DNA of 24,000 nt. Source: Steroidobacter denitrificans (GTDB lineage Bacteria > Pseudomonadota > Gammaproteobacteria > Steroidobacterales > Steroidobacteraceae). A program made the position numbers and the translations under genes. The stretch spans positions 2,702,030 to 2,726,029 of the forward strand of contig NZ_CP011971.1 in the NCBI RefSeq assembly GCF_001579945.1, given 5' to 3'. Positions 15,877 to 24,000 of this stretch are shown here, piece after piece. The number at the start of each line of letters is the position of its first letter. Position 1 is the first letter of the stretch. Below the pieces are notes generated by a model. The model did no database searches, was not told where the DNA came from, and saw nothing but the letters and a program-made list of their open reading frames with translations.

Positions 15877-16659
15877 ATGGATCGCTTCGACCTCGTCCAG
15901 TCGTTCATCGAACAATGCGAACGAGCCACACATACCGACGATCTGAAACTGGCCTTCCAGCACGCACTGGGGCGTCTGGGATTTCGCTACTTCGCCTGCG
16001 GTTTCCATGTCGATCCCCTGCATCCTCGCGATGCGATCATGATGCTCGATTATCCCCGCGCATGGGTCGCAATCTACAGCGAACAGCAGCTACATCGCAT
16101 CGATCCGGTATTCGTGCGTGCCGGCCGCACGGCGCTGCCCTTCTTTTGGGACAGCAGGGAATTCAGGATCGGCGTGCGGCCGCGTCAGCGCAAGATGCTG
16201 GCGGAGGCGCGCCGCTTCGGCATCGCGCACGGCTATACGATTCCGATTCATTCGCCGCGATCTCCGCTGCCGCTGCGCGCCTCCTGTTCCGTCATTCCCG
16301 ATACATCTTCGATTCATCGTCACAGCTATTTTGCCGTCCAGCTGATGGCCGGCCATCTGTTCGAGTGCGCCGCCCGCCTGAGAAACTTGAATCGCCCTGC
16401 CGTCGAAACGCCTCAACTGTCCCGGCGGCAACGGGAATGTCTGGAACTGGTTGGACAAGGAAAAAGCGACTGGGAAATCGCGATGATCCTGGGCATCAGC
16501 GCACATACGGTCCATACATATATCACCGCCGCGATGCGGCGGTTCCAGGTTTCGACACGCCAGCAGGCGCTGGTGTGTGCGCTTGCCTGGCATCAGATAT
16601 CGTTCGGCGATGTACTGCGCGCGCGGCCGGTCGCGGATGACGGCAGCGCCGAGGCATGA
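15877..16659 (+). CDS. LuxR-family acyl-homoserine-lactone-responsive transcriptional regulator
   Basis: Strong SD (AAGGAAGG, 6-nt spacer). The N-terminal autoinducer-binding domain carries the conserved W-x3-Y...DP...PFFW residues (YPRAWVAIYSEQQLHRIDPVF...LPFFWD). The C-terminal LuxR HTH is LSRRQRECLELVGQGKSDWEIAMILGISAHTVHTY. Confidence 0.9.
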   Translation: MDRFDLVQSFIEQCERATHTDDLKLAFQHALGRLGFRYFACGFHVDPLHPRDAIMMLDYPRAWVAIYSEQQLHRIDPVFVRAGRTALPFFWDSREFRIGVRPRQRKMLAEARRFGIAHGYTIPIHSPRSPLPLRASCSVIPDTSSIHRHSYFAVQLMAGHLFECAARLRNLNRPAVETPQLSRRQRECLELVGQGKSDWEIAMILGISAHTVHTYITAAMRRFQVSTRQQALVCALAWHQISFGDVLRARPVADDGSAEA

Positions 16660-16758: not shown

Positions 16759-17499
16759 ATGATCTTCATCGTCAATGCCGAGAATCGCCGTTTTCTCGAT
16801 TCTGCTCTGATGCAGATGTATCGTCATCGCAAAGCGGTGTTCGTCGACGAACTCGGCTGGAACATCCCGCACGCCGGCGGCCTGGAAATGGATCGTTACG
16901 ATCGTGAAGACACGATCTACCTGGTTGCCCGTCATCGCGGCGAGCGGCGGATTCAGGCCTCCGCGCGCCTACTGCCGACCCTGGGCCCGCATCTGATGAG
17001 CGACGTGTTCCCGCATACTCTCCACGGCGGCATACCACGCGGCGAGCGGATCTGGGAAGCCTCTCGTTTCTGTCCTGCACCGGACCTCGGCGGCCGGCGG
17101 CGCCGGCTGGCGCTTCTTTGGGAAGTCTTCTGCGGACTCATGGAAACCTCGCTGCTGTTCGGTATCGAGCGCATCGTCTTTCAGGCCGGCACCGCGCTTC
17201 TACCCCTGGCGCTGCGCTGCGGCTGGGATGCCGCCGTGCTCGGTCCGACCCTGCCCTGCGGCAATGATCGTGTCACAGCCGTCGGCGTCGATATCACCCT
17301 GCAAGGGCTGCGCTCCATGCGTGAACGTTTCGGCATTCCGTCCCCCGTCACACGCTTCGTGACACCCGCCGACGTCGCTGTATGCCTCGGCTGGCTGCGG
17401 CAACACGAGGCCGACATTCCCGTTCAATTACCGACGAGCGCCGGACAGGACGATGGCCGCCGTGCGCAGGAAGACTTCGTCCCGCCGCGCTCCACATGA
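16759..17499 (+). CDS. Acyl-homoserine-lactone synthase (LuxI family)
   Basis: Conserved LuxI residues and blocks are present: RHRKAVFVDELGW, EMDRYD, YLVA, ARLLPT, IWEASRF. At 246 aa it carries a ~40-aa C-terminal extension relative to typical ~200-210-aa LuxI proteins. Confidence 0.9.
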   Translation: MIFIVNAENRRFLDSALMQMYRHRKAVFVDELGWNIPHAGGLEMDRYDREDTIYLVARHRGERRIQASARLLPTLGPHLMSDVFPHTLHGGIPRGERIWEASRFCPAPDLGGRRRRLALLWEVFCGLMETSLLFGIERIVFQAGTALLPLALRCGWDAAVLGPTLPCGNDRVTAVGVDITLQGLRSMRERFGIPSPVTRFVTPADVAVCLGWLRQHEADIPVQLPTSAGQDDGRRAQEDFVPPRST

Positions 17500-17511: not shown

Positions 17512-18435
17512 ATGTCACGCCGGCAACGACTGCATGTCCCGGGAGGGATCTATTGCGTTACTCAATTCGGCAGTGCCCGACAGCCCCTTTTTCCAGCGCC
17601 CGGCCATCACGGAATTTTCGAGCGCTGCTTCAGCGCCGCGCTCGAGCGCACCGGTACCCGCGCCATCGCCTATTGCTGCCTGCCATGCCGGATCCACCTG
17701 GTGCTGCAGGTCGGCACCGTACCGCTCGGACGCTTCCTGCAAGGCTATGCCGGTCCTTACGTGCGGACGATACATTCGCAGACCGGCGAATCCGGCCACC
17801 TGTTCGCCCGACGTTATCACGCCGTGCTCATCGATCCGCAAGGTTGGCTGCCGTCCATGATCCGTTATATCCATTATCTACCGGTAACGCTCGGCCTGGC
17901 GGCGGACCTGGGCGCCTATCCTTACAGCAGCCATTTCGATTATCTGGGCTGGCGAAACCGCGCCTGGTTGCACCAGCATATCGCGTTGCGGTCGATGGAA
18001 ATGCATGAAGATGCACGCGGAGATTACACGCGACTGATGCAGCGTCCACCCGCCGCGGGAGAGATCCGTCGGCTCCAGGCCGGTGAGGTGGATCCCCGCG
18101 TACTCGGCGACGGCAATTTCGTCGCTACGCTACCGCGCAGCGTGCGGATACCGCGATCCGCCATGTCGCTGGAGAAGATTACCCGCAACGTCACCCTCAT
18201 GCTCAACGTGAAGCACACCGAACTGTTTTCACGATCCAGGTTGCGCCGTCCGGCACTCGCACGCTCCGTCATCGCCTGGCATGCCATCGAACTGGGCGTC
18301 GCCCGCCTGAGCACCATCGCGAATTATCTCGGACGCGATCCGGCAACGATCACACTCGGCATCGCCCGTCATCGAGTGCGCCGCCCCGAGTTGTTCCGGC
18401 TGGATGCATTCCGTCATCTGGTGCCGCTGGGGTAA
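17512..18435 (+). CDS. Y1 (IS200/RAYT-like, COG1943-type) transposase-fold protein with C-terminal DnaA-C-like helix-turn-helix; probably domesticated
   Basis: The N-terminal ~150 aa align to the REP-associated tyrosine transposase pattern: RRQRLHVPGGIYCVTQFG, AYCCLPCRIHLVLQV, GHLFARRYHAVLID, RYIHYLPVTLGLAADLGAYPYSSH. The C-terminal ~90 aa (SRSRLRRPALARSVIAWHAIELGVARLSTIANYLGRDPATITLGIARH) resemble the DnaA domain-IV HTH. The gene starts 12 nt after the luxI stop. Confidence 0.7.
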   Translation: MSRRQRLHVPGGIYCVTQFGSARQPLFPAPGHHGIFERCFSAALERTGTRAIAYCCLPCRIHLVLQVGTVPLGRFLQGYAGPYVRTIHSQTGESGHLFARRYHAVLIDPQGWLPSMIRYIHYLPVTLGLAADLGAYPYSSHFDYLGWRNRAWLHQHIALRSMEMHEDARGDYTRLMQRPPAAGEIRRLQAGEVDPRVLGDGNFVATLPRSVRIPRSAMSLEKITRNVTLMLNVKHTELFSRSRLRRPALARSVIAWHAIELGVARLSTIANYLGRDPATITLGIARHRVRRPELFRLDAFRHLVPLG

Positions 18436-20309
18436 GCTCCAAGCTGCGTCACGTCGCGCCGGAATCCCTGCCGATGTTGAGCGTGCCACAGGCCCGCGTA
18501 CACACCCCGGCATTGCAGCAATTCGGCATGGCTGCCCTGTTCCACCAGCATGCCGCCGTCGAGCACCAGGATCCGATCCGCTGTCGTAACGGTCGCAAGC
18601 CGATGGGTGATCGCCAGAACGGTGCTTCCCGCAGTGATCCGTTGCAGTTCGCTCAGCACACCACGCTCCGTTGCACCGTCCAGCGATGCCGTCGCCTCGT
18701 CCAGCACGATGATGCGTGCTCGTCCGAGCACTGCGCGTGCGATCGCGATACGCTGGCGTTCGCCGCCTGAGAGCCGCACGCCGCGCTCGCCCACCGGCGT
18801 ATCATAGGCCTGCGGAAGGCTCATGATGCGGTCATGAATATTCGCCAGGCGCGCAGCCCAAATGATTTCTTCGCGTGGCGCGTCGCGTCCCACGGCGATA
18901 TTTCTGGCGATCGTGTCGTGAAACAGGATGACATCCTGGGGCACGACGGCAATCTTGCGCCGCAAGACAGCCAATGGCATCTGCTCCACAGGCATACCAT
19001 CGATACGTATCGTACCCTGGCTTGGACTGTACAGACGCAGCAGCAGGCGGATCAGCGTGGATTTACCTGCGCCGCTGCCCCCCACGATCGCTACCGTATC
19101 GCCGGCATCGATCCGAAAGGAGATCGAACGCAACGCCGGCGCCCCTTCCTCATAGGAGAATTCGACCCCGTCGAATTCCACATCGCCCCGAACCATGGGG
19201 ACCGTGCGCTCATCTGCCACAGCCATTGCAAACGGTGCTTCCGGCCGCTCGGCCAGGACACCCAACAGCCGCTCGACATATGCGAACGCCTGGGCGCTGT
19301 CGCGCAATGCCAGCCCAAGCATCTCCAATGGAGCCACCAGTCGTATCACATACGCATGGACCAGCACGACATCTCCAAAGGTCATGGCGCCGCGCAACAC
19401 ATCGCGAGCGGCGAAAATCACCGTCGCGCCGAGACAAGCCGCAAAAATGCCACCCAGCAATACGCCGTTGGCGGCGCGCCGGCTAAAGAATCCCCGCCAG
19501 GCAGCCTCGATGGCACGCAACGCAGCGCGATAGCGCGCACCGGCAGCAGCTTCAGCATTGAAGCATTTCACGGCTTCGCAATTCAGCAAGCTATCGGTAA
19601 ACATCGCATGAGCCGCGATATGTGTCTGTGCGATCCGGCGTGCCGGCCCTTCGATATCCGCCGCGCCGTGCTGGAACGCCAGCACGTACGCCGCGGTTGC
19701 CGCCAGCAATACTGCCAGGTAGATTTCATGCTCGAGCCGGACGAGAACGACGGCGATCAACCCAAGTTCCAGCAACACGGGAAACACCGTGCACAGTGCC
19801 GCGCTCAACAGCAGGCGACAGCCCTGGACGCCCTGTTCAGCCAGCTGCCCTATCGACCCCAAGCGCCCCCGGACATGCCAGTGCAAAGGCAAACACAGTA
19901 GATGCTCGAACACTCGCCGGCCGATCGCCCGACATACGCGCTGCTCCGCACATCCATGGCGATACAGGCGCCACTCGCCGATCAGGCGCGTCGAATACTG
20001 ACCCACTGCATACAGCAAGGCCAGGGCGGTGACGGCAAATTGCTCCTCTCCCGCCCTCTCCAGCACATCCAACAGGAATTTCAGCACCAGCGGCGTCAAC
20101 GCCGCCGCGCAGGCACCCGCCACCGCCAGCAAGATCACCATCCGCAAATCACGCCGCACGGAGCGATCCGCCGCCCGCCGAAACAGCAGCCAGACATCAC
20201 GCCATACGTGAAAGCGAAAGAGCCGCGCGTGACCGGGGAAGGCAGAGGCATTCATCGGTACACGATGTAAAACCCTGCCGGACATCGCAAGCGCCCTTGC
20301 CGATATCAT
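18414..20309 (-). CDS. ABC exporter, fused permease/ATPase (candidate McjD-like lasso-peptide export/immunity protein)
   Basis: An N-terminal 6-TM exporter domain is followed by Walker A GGSGAGKST, signature LSGGERQRIAIARA and Walker B IIVLDEATS. The start may be ATG 20309, 20285 or 20255. The 3' end overlaps the convergent gene by 22 bp (18414-18435). Confidence 0.88.
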   Translation of the reverse strand: MISARALAMSGRVLHRVPMNASAFPGHARLFRFHVWRDVWLLFRRAADRSVRRDLRMVILLAVAGACAAALTPLVLKFLLDVLERAGEEQFAVTALALLYAVGQYSTRLIGEWRLYRHGCAEQRVCRAIGRRVFEHLLCLPLHWHVRGRLGSIGQLAEQGVQGCRLLLSAALCTVFPVLLELGLIAVVLVRLEHEIYLAVLLAATAAYVLAFQHGAADIEGPARRIAQTHIAAHAMFTDSLLNCEAVKCFNAEAAAGARYRAALRAIEAAWRGFFSRRAANGVLLGGIFAACLGATVIFAARDVLRGAMTFGDVVLVHAYVIRLVAPLEMLGLALRDSAQAFAYVERLLGVLAERPEAPFAMAVADERTVPMVRGDVEFDGVEFSYEEGAPALRSISFRIDAGDTVAIVGGSGAGKSTLIRLLLRLYSPSQGTIRIDGMPVEQMPLAVLRRKIAVVPQDVILFHDTIARNIAVGRDAPREEIIWAARLANIHDRIMSLPQAYDTPVGERGVRLSGGERQRIAIARAVLGRARIIVLDEATASLDGATERGVLSELQRITAGSTVLAITHRLATVTTADRILVLDGGMLVEQGSHAELLQCRGVYAGLWHAQHRQGFRRDVTQLGAYPSGTR

Positions 20310-20757: not shown

Positions 20758-21067
20758 TCCGGCACCGGCTCGGAATGACCGTCGCACAATGCTGGTTCAG
20801 AACGACGCATCGGCGAATCCGGGGATTTTTATTGATCGAGTCCTTCAAGCGGACAGGCTGCAAACCCCTTGAATTCCGGTATTCTCGCCCGATCCGCCTC
20901 AGGAAATCTCCACTGCGCCTGGATGGCCCCGACTCACCTGCGCGTATCCACGCGCGACCGGAAATAATTATTACAAGACTATCCCCGTTGACACCGATGA
21001 TTCTGGCGCGCACGTTGATCCCGCCACTGCGGTCGGCAATCACTCGCACTCATCGAAGGAGACAGTC

Positions 21068-21184
21068 ATGAATACGACACTGACAATGGTCGATCTGGGA
21101 GATGCACGGGTCGAGACACGGGAGATTGGAGCACGGCAGCAGCAGGACAACGAGCGTGTTCTAGGACCGAGGCCGCTGGTGTAA
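21068..21184 (+). CDS. Lasso peptide precursor (38 aa): MNTTLTMVDLGDARVETREIGARQQQDNERVLGPRPLV
   Basis: Short ORF with AAGGAG (21056-21061) 6 nt before the ATG, located directly upstream of the lasso B and C genes. It has a leader-like segment MVDLGDARVETR with Thr two residues before the putative cleavage point. Acidic residues (D, E) sit 7-9 residues downstream as ring acceptors. It is too short to appear in the ORF track. Confidence 0.75.
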   Translation: MNTTLTMVDLGDARVETREIGARQQQDNERVLGPRPLV

Positions 21185-21200
21185 TTCAGCAATAACCTTC

Positions 21201-21240
21201 GGCGGAGTGCGCGGCGCCGGTACCAGCCGCGCACTCCGCC
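21201..21240 (+). terminator. Perfect 15-bp-stem hairpin between precursor and B gene (attenuator / mRNA-stabilising structure)
   Basis: GGCGGAGTGCGCGGC (21201-21215), a 10-nt loop gccggtacca, then GCCGCGCACTCCGCC (21226-21240). It starts 17 nt after the precursor stop. No U-tract follows (ctccagcgtt), so it is not a canonical full terminator. Confidence 0.55.
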
Positions 21241-21264: not shown

Positions 21265-22143
21265 ATGGACATGCCTTCTTTATTCAATATCTCTCGCAGT
21301 ACATGCCCGGCCACGCTGGATTTGGATGAATGGCCGAAACCCGTGGGTTCCAGCAATGATCGAGCGCCGAACGTAACCCGGCGCCCGGGCGATGGCACGA
21401 CGCGTTTCGAGCGCCTCCCCACCTATTGGCTACCGGCCCACGTCTATACCTGTCATGTCCCCGGCGGCACAGTATTTCTGGATCTGCGTCGCAATCGTTA
21501 TCTCGGCGTCGGTGAAGCCGAAACGCAGACATTACAACGTCATGTAGCAAACTGGCAGGATGCCACTCTCGACCTGGAACGCGATTCATTCAACGAATCG
21601 ACGGCGAGGCACATTCTCGATGCGTTGGTCGAGTCCGCGCTGTTACAAACGGAATCTGAATGCAGCAGGATCTTCTCGTCAACCTCCACCGGCCTGCAGG
21701 AAGCGCGGCACGGTCTCGAGACCGTTCGGGCTTCTCATCGATCCATTCGTGCGCCAGATTTGTGGCGATTCCTGCGAAGCTGCCTTTGGGCACATTGCAT
21801 TCTGCGCACCTCGTCACTGTACGACGCTGCCCATGCCATCGAGGATTTCAGGCAGACCGGCGGTTCGATCTTATCTCCGGCGGATCCCGCACAGACTTAT
21901 CGCTGCGTACAGATCTTTCGCCGCCTGCGGCCCTACGTCTTTGCCGCACAGGACCGATGCCTGTTTCAGGCACTGGCGCTGGTGCGTTTCCTGCAGTATT
22001 ACCAGACACCCGCCACCTGGATCATCGGCGTGCGCGTCAGACCCTGGGCTGCGCACAGCTGGGTGCAACAGGACGAACTGATCCTGGATGGGACGCCCGA
22101 GTCCGTACGCGAGTACATACCGATTCTCGCCGTCGAGGCATAG
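21265..22143 (+). CDS. Lasso peptide leader peptidase, fused B1 (PqqD-like RRE) + B2 (transglutaminase-like Cys protease)
   Basis: The N-terminal part YTCHVPGGTVFLDLRRNRYLGVGEAETQTLQRHV looks like a PqqD-type leader-recognition element. The C-terminal part carries the Cys/His/Asp arrangement DRCLFQALALVRFL...WAAHSWVQQDELILDG, typical of McjB-type proteases. Confidence 0.85.
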   Translation: MDMPSLFNISRSTCPATLDLDEWPKPVGSSNDRAPNVTRRPGDGTTRFERLPTYWLPAHVYTCHVPGGTVFLDLRRNRYLGVGEAETQTLQRHVANWQDATLDLERDSFNESTARHILDALVESALLQTESECSRIFSSTSTGLQEARHGLETVRASHRSIRAPDLWRFLRSCLWAHCILRTSSLYDAAHAIEDFRQTGGSILSPADPAQTYRCVQIFRRLRPYVFAAQDRCLFQALALVRFLQYYQTPATWIIGVRVRPWAAHSWVQQDELILDGTPESVREYIPILAVEA

Positions 22144-22149
22144 GCTGCC

Positions 22150-24000
22150 GTGCTGCGCTTCATGGGATGGGTCTGGGATGCGAGAGAGCCGCAGCAGGCC
22201 GAATTCGCTCGCTCGCTGCAACGAACACTGCTCGCTAGGCTGAACTGGCAGATGGCATTGGATACGCGTGGGGCGCAATGCTTCCTCACTGGCGGACACC
22301 CGAGTGCCCAATACCAGGTGCTGCCTCACGGCGCCGGCATCGTGCTCGGCACCCTGTTCGAGCAGCGTGCCGACCCCGTCGATGATTCGGCCTACCGGCC
22401 TGCGATCATCGAACCGCGGGATATACAGCCGCTCCTGAATAGCCAGGGGCGGCGACTGATCGAAAATTACTGGGGCAACTACCTCGCCATCCTGTGCGAC
22501 GAACATCGCAGCGGCATCTGCATCATCAAGGATCCCACCGGCCCTCTGCCCTGCTTCATCACCTCGCTGCACGGCCTTACGATGCTGTTTTCCTCTGTGT
22601 CCGATTGCCTGAATCTCGGCGCATTCTCCTTCACCGTCAATCCCGCCTACTTGAGAGATCGAGTTTCGGGCCGGCACGAAACCTCCCACGGCGCACTCAA
22701 CGAAGTCCGCCCGCTGTATGGCGGCGAGTGTCTTCACTTCGACTTTCGCACGCACCCCATGACGCGCACCACCCGGCTCCATTGGCACCCATTGCGTCTG
22801 GCCTACGATACGAATCCGGTTGAACACCCCGCCCAGGCGGCCGCCATGGTGCGCGCCGCGGTGCGCGCCTGCACCCGCACGCTGGCTGCCGAGCACGATG
22901 CCGTGCTGCTGCGGCTCTCCGGAGGCCTGGACTCCTCCATCATCTGCGCCTGCTTGGCCGATATGCCCTCACGACCCACTGTGACCAGCTATACCTACTA
23001 CGATCCGCACGGACCCGCGGACGAGCGGCCTTGGGCACGGCTCGCCGCTGCGCACGCCGCCTTTGAACACCTCGAATATCCTTTCGACCCACAAACGATC
23101 GATCTGCGTCGGCGGCCCAAACTGCTCCCATCGGTATACGTGGTATCGATACTCGAATATCTCGATCTTTCGAAGCTCGAGCGGCAGCTGACCGCCGACC
23201 GTGGCGCAACCGCCATATTCTCAGGCGACGGCGGCGATTCCGGCTTTTGCAGCGACTCGATCGCGCTTGCCCTCGTCGAATACTTGAAGCGCCACGGCCT
23301 TCGTTCAAACGCTCTGCTCCTGGCGACCCAAATCTCGCTCTATACCCAACGTTCGTCCTGGCAGGTGTTGGCCAACTCCCTGCGACGCTGGTTTCGCGGT
23401 CAGACGCCGGCCGATCAACAGGAAGTCCAGGAGACCATCAACCGGCTGGCCCATCCGGATCTGCGATCCCGTACAGCTGTCGACTCTACGCCCGTACATC
23501 CCTGGTTTCGCGACTGTGACGAGACTCCCTGGGCACTTATGCGCCGGCTCGGTAATCTGCCGAATCCGATGCCCTACTACGACCTGTCCGCTGATCCTGA
23601 CACCAAAACACCGGAGGTCGTCGCGCCGCTGTATGCGCAACCGGCCGTGGAACTGTTTTTGCGCATTCCCCTGTACGTCCATTTTTTTGAGGGAAAGGAT
23701 CGTGGGTTGGCACGGGACGCCTTTGCCGGCATGGTACCCGCGCCCATACTCCAGCGTCTGTGGAAAGACCGTGCCCCAGGCTTTCTGGAAGAAATCGTGA
23801 GCCGCAATCGGGAAGCGTTGCGTGAACTCCTGCTCGATGGTGTACTGGCGGCATCGGGCCTATTGGACCGTTCGGCCACCGAACAGGCGCTGTCGCCGAT
23901 GCCTTCGAAAAGCCTCGTTGTTCCGATCGAGTTGTTCAGTCATCTGGACACGGAGCTCTGGGCGCGCCAATGGATGGACGGCCGGCACGAACCCGGAATC
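22150..24000 (+). CDS. Lasso peptide lactam synthetase / cyclase (asparagine synthetase B-like, McjC family), 3' end outside window
   Basis: I translated this frame by hand. It is open from GTG 22150 (GAGG at 22135-22138; alternative ATG 22162) to nt 24000, giving 617 codons with no stop. It contains the Asn-synthetase PP-loop AVLLRLSGGLDSSIICA (about 22906-22950) and later FSGDGGDSGF. It is not in the supplied track because it has no stop codon inside the window. Confidence 0.85.
   Translation, partial: MLRFMGWVWDAREPQQAEFARSLQRTLLARLNWQMALDTRGAQCFLTGGHPSAQYQVLPHGAGIVLGTLFEQRADPVDDSAYRPAIIEPRDIQPLLNSQGRRLIENYWGNYLAILCDEHRSGICIIKDPTGPLPCFITSLHGLTMLFSSVSDCLNLGAFSFTVNPAYLRDRVSGRHETSHGALNEVRPLYGGECLHFDFRTHPMTRTTRLHWHPLRLAYDTNPVEHPAQAAAMVRAAVRACTRTLAAEHDAVLLRLSGGLDSSIICACLADMPSRPTVTSYTYYDPHGPADERPWARLAAAHAAFEHLEYPFDPQTIDLRRRPKLLPSVYVVSILEYLDLSKLERQLTADRGATAIFSGDGGDSGFCSDSIALALVEYLKRHGLRSNALLLATQISLYTQRSSWQVLANSLRRWFRGQTPADQQEVQETINRLAHPDLRSRTAVDSTPVHPWFRDCDETPWALMRRLGNLPNPMPYYDLSADPDTKTPEVVAPLYAQPAVELFLRIPLYVHFFEGKDRGLARDAFAGMVPAPILQRLWKDRAPGFLEEIVSRNREALRELLLDGVLAASGLLDRSATEQALSPMPSKSLVVPIELFSHLDTELWARQWMDGRHEPGI

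What the first reader, a model, noticed from the sequence alone, without database searches (positions are those of the whole stretch)
21068..21184. Precursor whose conserved leader register puts Glu, not Gly, at core position 1
Seen in the sequence: the leader ...MVDLGDARVETR is followed by EIGARQQQDNERVLGPRPLV.

Established knowledge: lasso leaders carry a nearly invariant Thr at the penultimate (-2) position. Cores usually start with Gly, less often Ala, Ser or Cys. An Asp or Glu at position 7, 8 or 9 closes the ring. From memory, the L-x-x-L-G-x-A-x-x-x-T-x spacing resembles astexin/caulosegnin-type leaders.

Inference: cleavage after T-R gives a 20-aa core with Glu1 and Asp9, that is, a 9-residue ring made from a Glu alpha-amine. 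I do not recall Glu1 among characterised lasso peptides.

The alternative is a start at Gly3, with a G3-D9 7-residue ring or a G3-E11 9-residue ring. That would place Thr at -4, which is itself non-canonical. Either outcome departs from the rules. The Gln/Arg-rich ring and the Pro-Arg-Pro tail are also unusual.
Basis: partly seen in the sequence, partly recalled or inferred. Interest (0 to 1): 0.75.

Follow-up and report, generated by a model that had tools for sequence, protein, structure and literature searches.

The report
Lasso peptide precursor starting with glutamate
This is a real but unannotated lasso-peptide precursor gene in Steroidobacter denitrificans whose knotted ring should be closed from an N-terminal glutamate rather than the usual glycine, which is unusual but now has published precedents and is common in this bacterial family.

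Summary
The 38-codon ORF at 21068-21184 is real. It has a GAAGGAG ribosome-binding site and sits 80 nt upstream of an intact lasso B protease and C cyclase. A divergent ABC exporter lies upstream. The source is Steroidobacter denitrificans.

I recovered 109 unique homologous precursors from the same position next to B homologues. All share the leader [IV]DLGDAxxxT[KR] with Thr at -2. One of them is the structurally solved rubrivinodin, which fixes the cleavage register.

In the Steroidobacteraceae-type clade, core position 1 is mostly Gln (42 of 70 unique cores). Glu occurs in 8, arising in at least six separate cyclase lineages. The four closest relatives read CAG (Gln) where the window reads GAG (Glu). 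Asp9, Asn10, Gly15 and Arg17 are conserved around a hypervariable core.

The best reading is a Glu1-Asp9 nine-residue ring with an 11-residue tail. A Gly3 start is disfavoured.

The novelty is reduced by two papers. Metanodin (2025, Steroidobacteraceae) has Asn1. Palassoptide A2 (2026, Actinomyces) has an NMR-proven Glu1 ring. I file this as a new member of a known kind, of moderate interest.

Side lead: many relatives have Asp10 as their only candidate ring acid, which predicts 10-residue rings.

The parts
20985..21067 (+). Conserved upstream region and 5' UTR of the precursor gene, containing a TTGACA hexamer near 20989 and the Shine-Dalgarno sequence GAAGGAG at 21055-21061.
   Evidence: About 70 nt are nearly invariant between the window and L081-L083. 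The sequence was read. The promoter scan found no full sigma-70 match on this strand, so a promoter role is inferred.
21068..21121 (+). Leader peptide, 18 aa: MNTTLTMVDLGDARVETR. Thr(-2) is codon ACA at 21116-21118 and Arg(-1) is at 21119-21121.
   Evidence: The motif [IV]DLGDAxxxT[KR] is shared by 109 unique precursors, including rubrivinodin's. There are weak matches to the benenodin (NF033522, E 1e-3) and subterisin (PF24178, E 0.08) leader models.
21122..21184 (+). Core peptide, 20 aa, plus stop: EIGARQQQDNERVLGPRPLV*. Glu1 is GAG at 21122-21124. The predicted ring acid Asp9 is GAC at 21146-21148. Gly15 and Arg17 in the tail are conserved.
   Evidence: Codon-by-codon comparison with L081-L084 shows position 1 as GAG against CAG. 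Gly3, Asp9, Asn10, Gly15, Arg17, Leu19 and Val20 are conserved and the rest is hypervariable.
21201..21240 (+). Perfect 15-bp stem-loop between the A and B genes.
   Evidence: Found by the inverted-repeat search. The 81-nt stretch containing it folds at -42.1 kcal/mol, z = -4.55. The stem is conserved in relatives with one compensatory pair. There is no T-tract, so it is not a classical terminator. A role in setting the A:BC expression ratio or stabilising the mRNA is inferred.
21265..22143 (+). Lasso B protein, 292 aa: leader peptidase with a transglutaminase-like core and an N-terminal domain conserved in homologues.
   Evidence: PF13471 scores 60.3 bits (cut-off 26) and NF033537 lasso_biosyn_B2 scores 60 bits (cut-off 33). 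It is 100% identical to the S. denitrificans protein P0001. Cys232 and His264 are invariant and Asp275 nearly invariant.
22150..24000 (+). Lasso cyclase C (asparagine-synthetase-like). It is 620 aa in full and the last three codons lie beyond the window.
   Evidence: PF00733 scores 84 bits (cut-off 21). It is 100% identical to P0047, 620 aa. The start, end and the PP-loop SGGLDS at residue 257 were mapped.
18414..20309 (-). Divergently transcribed ABC exporter, 631 aa. This is the likely D gene for export and self-protection.
   Evidence: PF00664 and PF00005 both score above their cut-offs. A 638-aa ORF occupies the same place and orientation in relative L083; its family was not tested.

Best explanation
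The ORF encodes the precursor (A) of a class II lasso peptide made by the adjacent B, C and D genes of Steroidobacter denitrificans.

Proposed mechanism:
1. The N-terminal domain of B binds the DLGDAxxxT leader.
2. The Cys-His-Asp protease of B cuts after Arg18, leaving Thr at -2.
3. The cyclase C adenylates the side-chain carboxylate of Asp9.
4. The freed alpha-amine of Glu1 attacks it. This closes a nine-residue macrolactam (EIGARQQQD) around the 11-residue tail NERVLGPRPLV.
5. Arg17 and its neighbours probably act as the steric lock.
6. The ABC transporter exports the product.

The predicted mass is 2256.2087 Da.

Glu at position 1 is not a freak. This cyclase clade normally uses Gln1, and Gln and Glu interchange repeatedly by a single C/G change in the codon.

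What is shown: the gene content, the leader register, and the conservation of Asp9 and the tail anchors. What is inferred: the cleavage site, the ring linkage, the threading and the export.
For: - Cluster genes: B, C and D are present and intact.
- Register: the leader aligns without gaps to 109 unique precursors next to B homologues. L068 encodes rubrivinodin (GAPSLINSEDNPAFPQR..., PDB 5OQZ) with the same IVDLGDAKELTQ|G leader.
- Clade pattern: in a tree of 97 cyclases, the clade without Gly1 has Gln in 42 of 70 unique cores and Glu in 8. Glu occurs in at least six separate lineages nested among Gln1 relatives.
- Closest relatives: their cyclases are 81% identical in my alignment. They read CAG (Gln) at position 1 and keep Gly3, Asp9, Asn10, Gly15, Arg17, Leu19 and Val20.
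- Ring acid: it is almost always Asp followed by Ser, Asn or Gly in this clade.
- Experimental precedents: metanodin has Asn1 with Thr at -2 and comes from Steroidobacteraceae. Palassoptide A2 has a Glu1-Glu8 ring shown by HMBC, and its cyclase accepts all residues but Pro at position 1.
Against: - No product has been observed for this cluster.
- Glu1 here is a derived single-nucleotide change from Gln. It could lower yield or abolish maturation with this particular cyclase.
- I found no Glu-specific compensating change in the cyclase across six Glu/Gln pairs. That is neutral, not supportive.
- The leader-recognition (RRE) domain of B was not detected by Pfam.
- The ring linkage in rubrivinodin (Gly1-Glu9) is from my memory of the literature, not from a text I could read.
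Confidence: 0.75

Rival explanations
1. The precursor is a crippled variant. The ancestral core began with Gln, as in all four closest relatives, and the Q1E change (CAG to GAG) stops or strongly reduces cyclisation. The cluster would then make little or no lasso peptide, or only a linear or pyroglutamyl peptide.
For: All four closest relatives read CAG and the window differs by one base. Outside the cyclases known to be tolerant at position 1, lasso cyclases are generally strict for their native residue there, as summarised. No charge-complementing change specific to Glu1 cyclases was found.
Against: Glu1 recurs in at least six other cyclase lineages, and Asp1 in at least two more. That is unlikely if acidic residues were dead ends. 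The rest of the core keeps all the conserved anchors, and B, C and D are intact. Gln and Glu are nearly the same shape.
Confidence: 0.13
2. The core starts at Gly3 (cleavage after Ile, Thr at -4). This would give a seven-residue Gly3-Asp9 ring or a nine-residue Gly3-Glu11 ring, so that position 1 is the canonical Gly.
For: Gly3 is conserved in the four closest relatives and in 28 of 70 non-Gly cores. Seven-residue rings exist, as in the xanthomonins (reference list seen).
Against: It needs cleavage two residues beyond the conserved Thr-x site used by rubrivinodin and metanodin. In 10 of the 28 Gly3 cores the ring from Gly3 would have six residues. 42 of the 70 cores have no Gly3. Glu11 is not conserved: the relatives have Pro, Leu or Glu there.
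Confidence: 0.05
3. Cleavage occurs one residue later (Thr at -3). The conserved Gln/Glu would then be the last leader residue and the ring would be Ile2-Asp9, with eight residues. Across the whole clade this would convert the predicted 8, 9 and 10-residue rings into the canonical 7, 8 and 9.
For: In the Thr(-2) register, 35 of 70 non-Gly cores have Asp10 as their only acid within positions 7-11, which predicts 10-residue rings unknown in nature. A one-residue shift would remove that anomaly.
Against: In the closest relatives the next residue is Pro (QPGI..., QPGL...). Pro is never seen at position 1 and was the only substitution rejected by PalC. Metanodin shows experimentally that the polar residue after Thr-x is ring residue 1 in this bacterial family. 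Clusters with two precursors have Gly or Asp at this same position (L151).
Confidence: 0.04

Closest known systems
Rubrivinodin (Rubrivivax gelatinosus; class II lasso peptide; PDB 5OQZ)
   Same: The B protease is homologous (about 35% identity in the best tblastn segment, L068) and the cyclase falls in the same family tree. The precursor gene sits immediately upstream of the B homologue in both. The leader is the same (IVDLGDAKELTQ against MVDLGDARVETR), with Thr at -2 and a 'DN' after the ring region.
   Different: Rubrivinodin starts with Gly1 and, from memory, closes on Glu9. The window peptide starts with Glu1 and closes on Asp9. The cyclases belong to different clades, which are separated by eight diagnostic alignment columns.
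Metanodin (soil metagenome, Steroidobacteraceae; J Nat Prod 2025, PMC12670498)
   Same: The bacterial family is the same. It has a proteobacterial A-B-C architecture, Thr at -2, a non-canonical polar residue at ring position 1, and a precursor missed by automatic annotation.
   Different: Metanodin has Asn1 rather than Glu1. Its cluster has an isopeptidase and is listed among clusters that lack the D exporter, whereas the window has a D exporter. I could not retrieve its sequence, so homology was not measured.
Palassoptide A2 (Actinomyces, ancient dental calculus; JACS 2026, PMC13632552)
   Same: It is the only characterised lasso peptide with Glu at core position 1. The alpha-amine of Glu1 forms the macrolactam, shown by an HMBC correlation from the Glu1 alpha-H to the Glu8 delta-C.
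   Different: It comes from Actinomycetota and has an eight-residue ring closed on Glu8. Its cyclase PalC is exceptionally promiscuous. The window peptide is gammaproteobacterial, has a single B gene with no separate RRE (B1) gene, should form a nine-residue ring closed on Asp9, and lies in a clade where Gln1 is the norm. Sequence relatedness was not tested.
Astexin/caulosegnin/benenodin-type proteobacterial lasso clusters
   Same: They share the generic LGxAxxxTx leader. The window leader gives a weak hit to the benenodin model NF033522. The closest relatives of the window cluster carry an Atxe2-family isopeptidase and a TonB-dependent receptor after C, as astexin clusters do.
   Different: Those peptides start with Gly, or Ser/Ala in the caulonodins. 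The benenodin model score of 18.9 is below its cut-off of 33. The window cluster also has an ABC exporter.

Membership tests
Lasso peptide biosynthetic gene cluster (RiPP class) | A short precursor gene next to the maturation genes, with Thr at the penultimate leader position. | tested here: met
   The 38-aa ORF lies 80 nt upstream of B. Thr17 is followed by Arg18, and the motif aligns without gaps to 109 unique homologous precursors.
Lasso peptide biosynthetic gene cluster (RiPP class) | Asp or Glu at core position 7, 8 or 9 to close the ring. | tested here: met
   Asp9 in the Thr(-2) register is invariant in the closest relatives and is followed by the clade-typical Asn.
Lasso peptide biosynthetic gene cluster (RiPP class) | A B (B2) leader peptidase with a transglutaminase-like fold and a Cys-His-Asp triad. 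| tested here: met
   PF13471 scores 60.3 bits (cut-off 26) and NF033537 scores 60 bits (cut-off 33). Cys232 and His264 are invariant and Asp275 is at least 90% conserved among 32 homologues.
Lasso peptide biosynthetic gene cluster (RiPP class) | [quoted passage not shown] | tested here: met
   PF00733 scores 84 bits (cut-off 21). SGGLDS lies at residue 257 of the 620-aa protein. The NCBIfam lasso-cyclase models score below their cut-offs.
Lasso peptide biosynthetic gene cluster (RiPP class) | A leader-recognition element (RRE, B1 or PqqD-like domain), separate or fused to B. | tested here: inconclusive
   The N-terminal 172 residues of B give no Pfam hit even at E = 10. However, this region carries invariant residues across homologues (Leu72, Asp73, Tyr79 in FLDLRRNRY).
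Lasso peptide biosynthetic gene cluster (RiPP class) | A threaded lariat topology in the mature product. | not testable with these tools
   This needs MS/MS, carboxypeptidase and heat assays, or NMR.
Canonical Gly1 (or Ala/Ser/Cys1) lasso core | A small residue at core position 1. | tested here: not met
   Position 1 is Glu (GAG, 21122-21124). The clade norm is Gln.
Benenodin family lasso peptide (NCBIfam NF033522) | A score at or above the curated cut-off of 33 bits. | tested here: not met
   The score is 18.9 bits, E = 1e-3, and only the leader matches (residues 4-18).
Subterisin family (Pfam PF24178) | A score at or above the gathering cut-off of 27 bits. | tested here: not met
   The score is 13.4 bits, E = 0.083, and only the leader matches.
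Glu1 lasso peptides (palassoptide A2 type) | A macrolactam formed from the alpha-amine of an N-terminal Glu. | not testable with these tools
   This is predicted from the register only. It was shown experimentally only for palassoptide A2.

The most novel reading that the evidence does not exclude
The window peptide belongs to a large, uncharacterised Steroidobacteraceae and soil clade of lasso systems whose cyclases have moved away from Gly1 to a Gln/Glu-type position 1. Their ring sizes extend beyond the known 7-9 residues: half of the non-Gly cores have Asp10 as the only possible ring acid, and one locus has Asp11. At least some members combine an ABC exporter with an isopeptidase and a TonB-dependent receptor in one locus. 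On this reading, the S. denitrificans product would be the first proteobacterial Glu1 lasso peptide. It would also be a cultivable, genome-complete entry point to a new structural subclass.
Probability: 0.45. Interest if true: 0.6.

Novelty: new member of a known kind. Interest (0 to 1): 0.4.

Why it matters
Position 1 supplies the amine that closes the lasso ring. It was long treated as Gly, Ala, Ser or Cys only, so mining tools miss precursors that break that rule. This one is unannotated, and the metanodin authors report that antiSMASH missed theirs in the same way.

The comparison shows that a whole Steroidobacteraceae-type clade uses Gln or Glu at this position and swaps between them freely. 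This has three uses:
- It gives a natural test set for how cyclases recognise residue 1, through eight clade-diagnostic cyclase positions.
- It provides a cultivable strain (S. denitrificans) in which to obtain a proteobacterial Glu1 lasso.
- It points to probable natural 10-residue rings.

The finding does not overturn current understanding, because Asn1 and Glu1 lassos were published in 2025 and 2026.

Tried and rejected
- Searching the protein database with the precursor itself failed because it is shorter than the 40-aa minimum.
- Exact look-ups of the precursor and of B in the gene-position index found nothing.
- A first scan of genome contigs with B alone found no relatives. The scan with an alignment worked.
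- The contigs of the two closest cyclases (84% identity, L158-L164) all break at the GC-rich A-B hairpin, so they carry no precursor.
- Sequence searches of the PDB gave no hit for C and only a non-significant one for B (E 0.5), so FusC helix 18 and Leu337 could not be mapped onto this cyclase.
- Pfam found no RRE or PqqD domain in the N-terminus of B.
- I looked for cyclase substitutions shared by Glu1 lineages against their Gln1 sisters, for example a gained basic residue. None recurred across six pairs.
- The metanodin sequence could not be retrieved from the paper or its supplement, and it is not among my loci. Its relatedness and ring size could not be checked.
- The terminator scan did not classify the A-B hairpin as an intrinsic terminator because it lacks a T-tract.
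- Literature searches for a natural 10-residue lasso ring found none. Only an engineered 10-mer of fusilassin is reported.
- The Gly3-start, Thr(-3) and Glu11-ring readings were considered and rejected. The Gly3 and Thr(-3) reasons are set out under the rival explanations. A Glu1-Glu11 ring was rejected because Glu11 is not conserved.

Full report
**1. Observation**

GAAGGAG lies at 21055-21061, six nucleotides before the ATG.

A perfect 15-bp stem-loop at 21201-21240 follows the ORF. The 81-nt stretch containing it folds at -42.1 kcal/mol, with z = -4.55 against shuffles. The next gene starts at 21265.

On the opposite strand there is only a 64-aa ORF, with no support from other evidence.

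**2. Context**

- 21265-22143 encodes a lasso B peptidase. PF13471 scores 60.3 bits and NF033537 'lasso peptide biosynthesis B2 protein' scores 60 bits, both above their cut-offs.
- 22150 onwards encodes an asparagine-synthetase-like cyclase (PF00733, 84 bits).
- Both proteins are 100% identical to proteins of Steroidobacter denitrificans, from a 3.47-Mb contig.
- The cyclase has 620 aa and only its last three codons lie outside the window. Its PP-loop SGGLDS is intact.
- B keeps the invariant Cys232 and His264, and Asp275.
- A 631-aa ABC exporter is transcribed divergently at 18414-20309.

The gene set A, B, C and D is therefore complete. The precursor itself is not on record as a called gene.

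**3. Relatives**

Scans of genome and metagenome contigs with an alignment of B proteins returned 157 loci. A script extracted the small ORFs just upstream of each B homologue.

This gave 109 unique precursors. All carry the leader [IV]DLGDAxxxT[KRQM...] with Thr two residues before the variable core.

One of them (L068, Rubrivivax) encodes GAPSLINSEDNPAFPQRV. This is rubrivinodin, a produced and structurally solved lasso peptide. The literature gives its sequence as GAPSLINSEDNPAFPQR-, PDB 5OQZ. This anchors the cleavage register for this leader type.

**4. Position 1 across the family**

A neighbour-joining tree of 97 linked cyclases splits into two parts.
- One clade comes mainly from Burkholderiales and Sphingomonadales. 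Its cores start with Gly and mostly close on Glu9.
- The other comes from Steroidobacteraceae and soil metagenomes. It contains 70 unique non-Gly cores.

Position 1 in the 70 non-Gly cores:

| Residue | Cores |
|---|---|
| Gln | 42 |
| Glu | 8 |
| Thr | 5 |
| Asp | 4 |
| Cys | 4 |
| Ala | 2 |
| His | 2 |
| Asn | 1 |
| Tyr | 1 |
| Phe | 1 |

Glu1 appears in at least six separate lineages nested among Gln1 relatives: the window, L016, L022/L025, L149, L132 and L004. Two further Glu1 cores seen fell outside this tally.

Some clusters carry two precursors with different first residues. L151 has Asp and Gly, and L142 has Gln and Cys.

**5. The closest relatives**

L081-L084 have B proteins matching at 50-69% (best tblastn segment). 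The cyclases of L081 and L082 are 81% identical to the window's in my alignment. All four carry the same 38-codon gene.
- The leaders differ at three positions.
- Eleven codon columns, one of them the stop codon, differ only synonymously.
- The core is hypervariable except for position 1 (CAG, Gln, in all four; GAG, Glu, in the window), Gly3, Asp9, Asn10, Gly15, Arg17, Leu19 and Val20.

This is the expected pattern for a precursor with a fixed ring acid and a fixed locking region. The window's Glu1 is thus a single C-to-G change from the local Gln1 state.

**6. Which core start?**

- A Gly3 start needs cleavage two residues past the conserved Thr-x site. Only 28 of 70 non-Gly cores have Gly3, and in 10 of those the ring from Gly3 would have six residues.
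- A start one residue later (Thr at -3) would put Pro at position 1 in the closest relatives. Pro is the only residue never found at position 1 in a large survey, and the only one rejected by the tolerant cyclase PalC.
- Glu11 is not conserved.

The Thr(-2) register with Glu1-Asp9 is the only reading that works across the family. Predicted masses are 2256.2087 Da for the Glu1-Asp9 lasso, 2127.1661 Da for an Ile2 start and 2014.0820 Da for a Gly3 start.

**7. Mechanism**

The steps below follow established lasso biosynthesis and are not shown here.
1. B binds the leader and cuts after Arg18.
2. C adenylates the Asp9 side chain.
3. The Glu1 alpha-amine closes the nine-residue ring around the pre-folded tail.
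4. The exporter removes the product.

I compared six Glu1 cyclases with their Gln1 sisters and found no recurrent substitution. This fits one pocket accepting both side chains, which are nearly the same shape.

Eight alignment columns separate the Gly1 clade from the non-Gly clade. In P0047 numbering the non-Gly residues are K127, P214, H249, T282, E344, L391, H511 and D540. These are candidates only, because clade and position-1 identity are confounded.

Published work, as summarised, ties position-1 tolerance to FusC helix 18 and Leu337 and to charge-complementary residues. I could not map those onto this protein.

**8. Literature**

- Metanodin (J Nat Prod 2025) comes from a Steroidobacteraceae-like metagenomic cluster. 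It has Asn at ring position 1 with Thr at -2, supported by MS/MS. Its authors note Gln at that position in a related cluster, and report that antiSMASH missed the precursor.
- Palassoptide A2 (JACS, September 2026) from Actinomyces has a Glu1-Glu8 ring proven by NMR. The authors call Glu1 unprecedented among previously characterised lasso peptides. Its cyclase accepts every residue except Pro at position 1. The paper also cites a large-scale survey in which all residues but Pro occur at position 1.

Glu1 is therefore rare and only just characterised once, in a distant phylum. It is no longer unknown, and the non-Gly habit of Steroidobacteraceae clusters has been glimpsed in print.

**9. Verdict**

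The structural interpretation (Glu1, Asp9, nine-residue ring) is well supported by comparison but lacks experimental proof. The novelty claim is weakened.

I file the peptide as a new member of a known kind and score interest at 0.4.

The main residual doubt is whether this particular Q-to-E change is fully tolerated by its cyclase (rival at 0.13).

One practical point for any experiment: a pyroglutamyl linear peptide from Glu1 has the same mass as the lasso, so MS/MS or NMR is needed.

**10. Side observations**

- Half of the non-Gly cores (35 of 70) have Asp10 as the only acid within positions 7-11 in the Thr(-2) register. Examples are QWSVWPIWFDSV..., QLAVLPLFIDNL... and CTSVPAVSVDSL...C.
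- In those cores, the conserved Gly at Asp+6 and Lys/Arg at Asp+8 line up with the window's Gly15 and Arg17.
- This predicts natural 10-residue rings. As of a 2020 preprint, all characterised natural lasso rings have 7-9 residues and only an engineered 10-mer has been reported; a 2026 review mentions only the engineered 7-10 range of fusilassin.
- The closest relatives also carry an Atxe2-type isopeptidase and a TonB-dependent receptor after C, while another close relative (L083) has a D-sized ORF in the exporter's position upstream of A, like the window.

Noticed in passing
L001-L013, L085-L126, L132, L137, L143-L145 (precursors upstream of B homologues): 35 of 70 unique non-Gly cores have Asp10 as the only acidic residue within positions 7-11 of the Thr(-2)-anchored core. 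Examples are QWSVWPIWFDSVFLLGEKDL, QLAVLPLFIDNLTAFGLLPF and CTSVPAVSVDSLYGPGHARC. This predicts natural 10-residue macrolactam rings. L129 has two precursors whose first candidate acid is at position 11. As of a 2020 preprint, characterised natural rings have 7-9 residues and only an engineered 10-mer is reported.
   Followed up: partly
L158 2839-7733 and L159 2707-7619 (downstream of cyclases 84% identical to the window's); L083 1315-3231: The closest relatives have a convergent Atxe2-family lasso isopeptidase (NF033523, E 4.6e-54, below its cut-off) and a TonB-dependent receptor directly after C. L083 has a 638-aa minus-strand ORF upstream of A in the position of the window's exporter; its family was not tested. 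This cluster type may therefore combine an exporter with an isopeptidase. The window ends inside C, so this is unknown for S. denitrificans.
   Followed up: partly
window 21201-21240: The 15-bp perfect GC-rich hairpin between A and B is conserved in relatives, with one compensatory pair. It has no T-tract. Several metagenome assemblies (L158-L163) break exactly at it.
   Followed up: partly
window about 20985-21067: About 70 nt upstream of the precursor ATG are almost invariant between the window and L081-L083, more conserved than the core-coding region. This may be a promoter, operator or 5' UTR element.
   Followed up: no
window 15877-16659 and 16759-17499: A LuxR-type regulator (autoinducer-binding domain plus GerE) and a LuxI-type acyl-homoserine-lactone synthase lie 0.9-4.5 kb from the exporter gene. 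Quorum-sensing control of the lasso cluster is possible but was not tested.
   Followed up: no
window 17512-18435; L083 395-1318: A 307-aa protein lies next to the exporter. It has a sub-threshold REP-associated tyrosine transposase match (NF047646, 49.8 bits, cut-off 80) and a sub-threshold DnaA C-terminal helix-turn-helix match (PF08299, 28.5 bits, cut-off 31.5). The same gene is in the same position in relative L083, so it may travel with the cluster.
   Followed up: no
window 21265-21390; L158 70-170; L159 30-130: The first 40 or so residues of the annotated B protein (MDMPS...CPAT.DLDEWPK) are conserved in relatives. There they form a separate short ORF that ends in a stop and is out of frame with B, which starts at a GTG. 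The true start of B in the window, or the existence of a small upstream ORF, is uncertain.
   Followed up: no
L115, L120, L121, L123, L126 (precursors): One subgroup of cores begins and ends with Cys (for example CTSVPAVSVDSLYGPGHARC). This suggests Cys1 lassos with a Cys1-Cys20 disulfide and an Asp10 ring acid.
   Followed up: no
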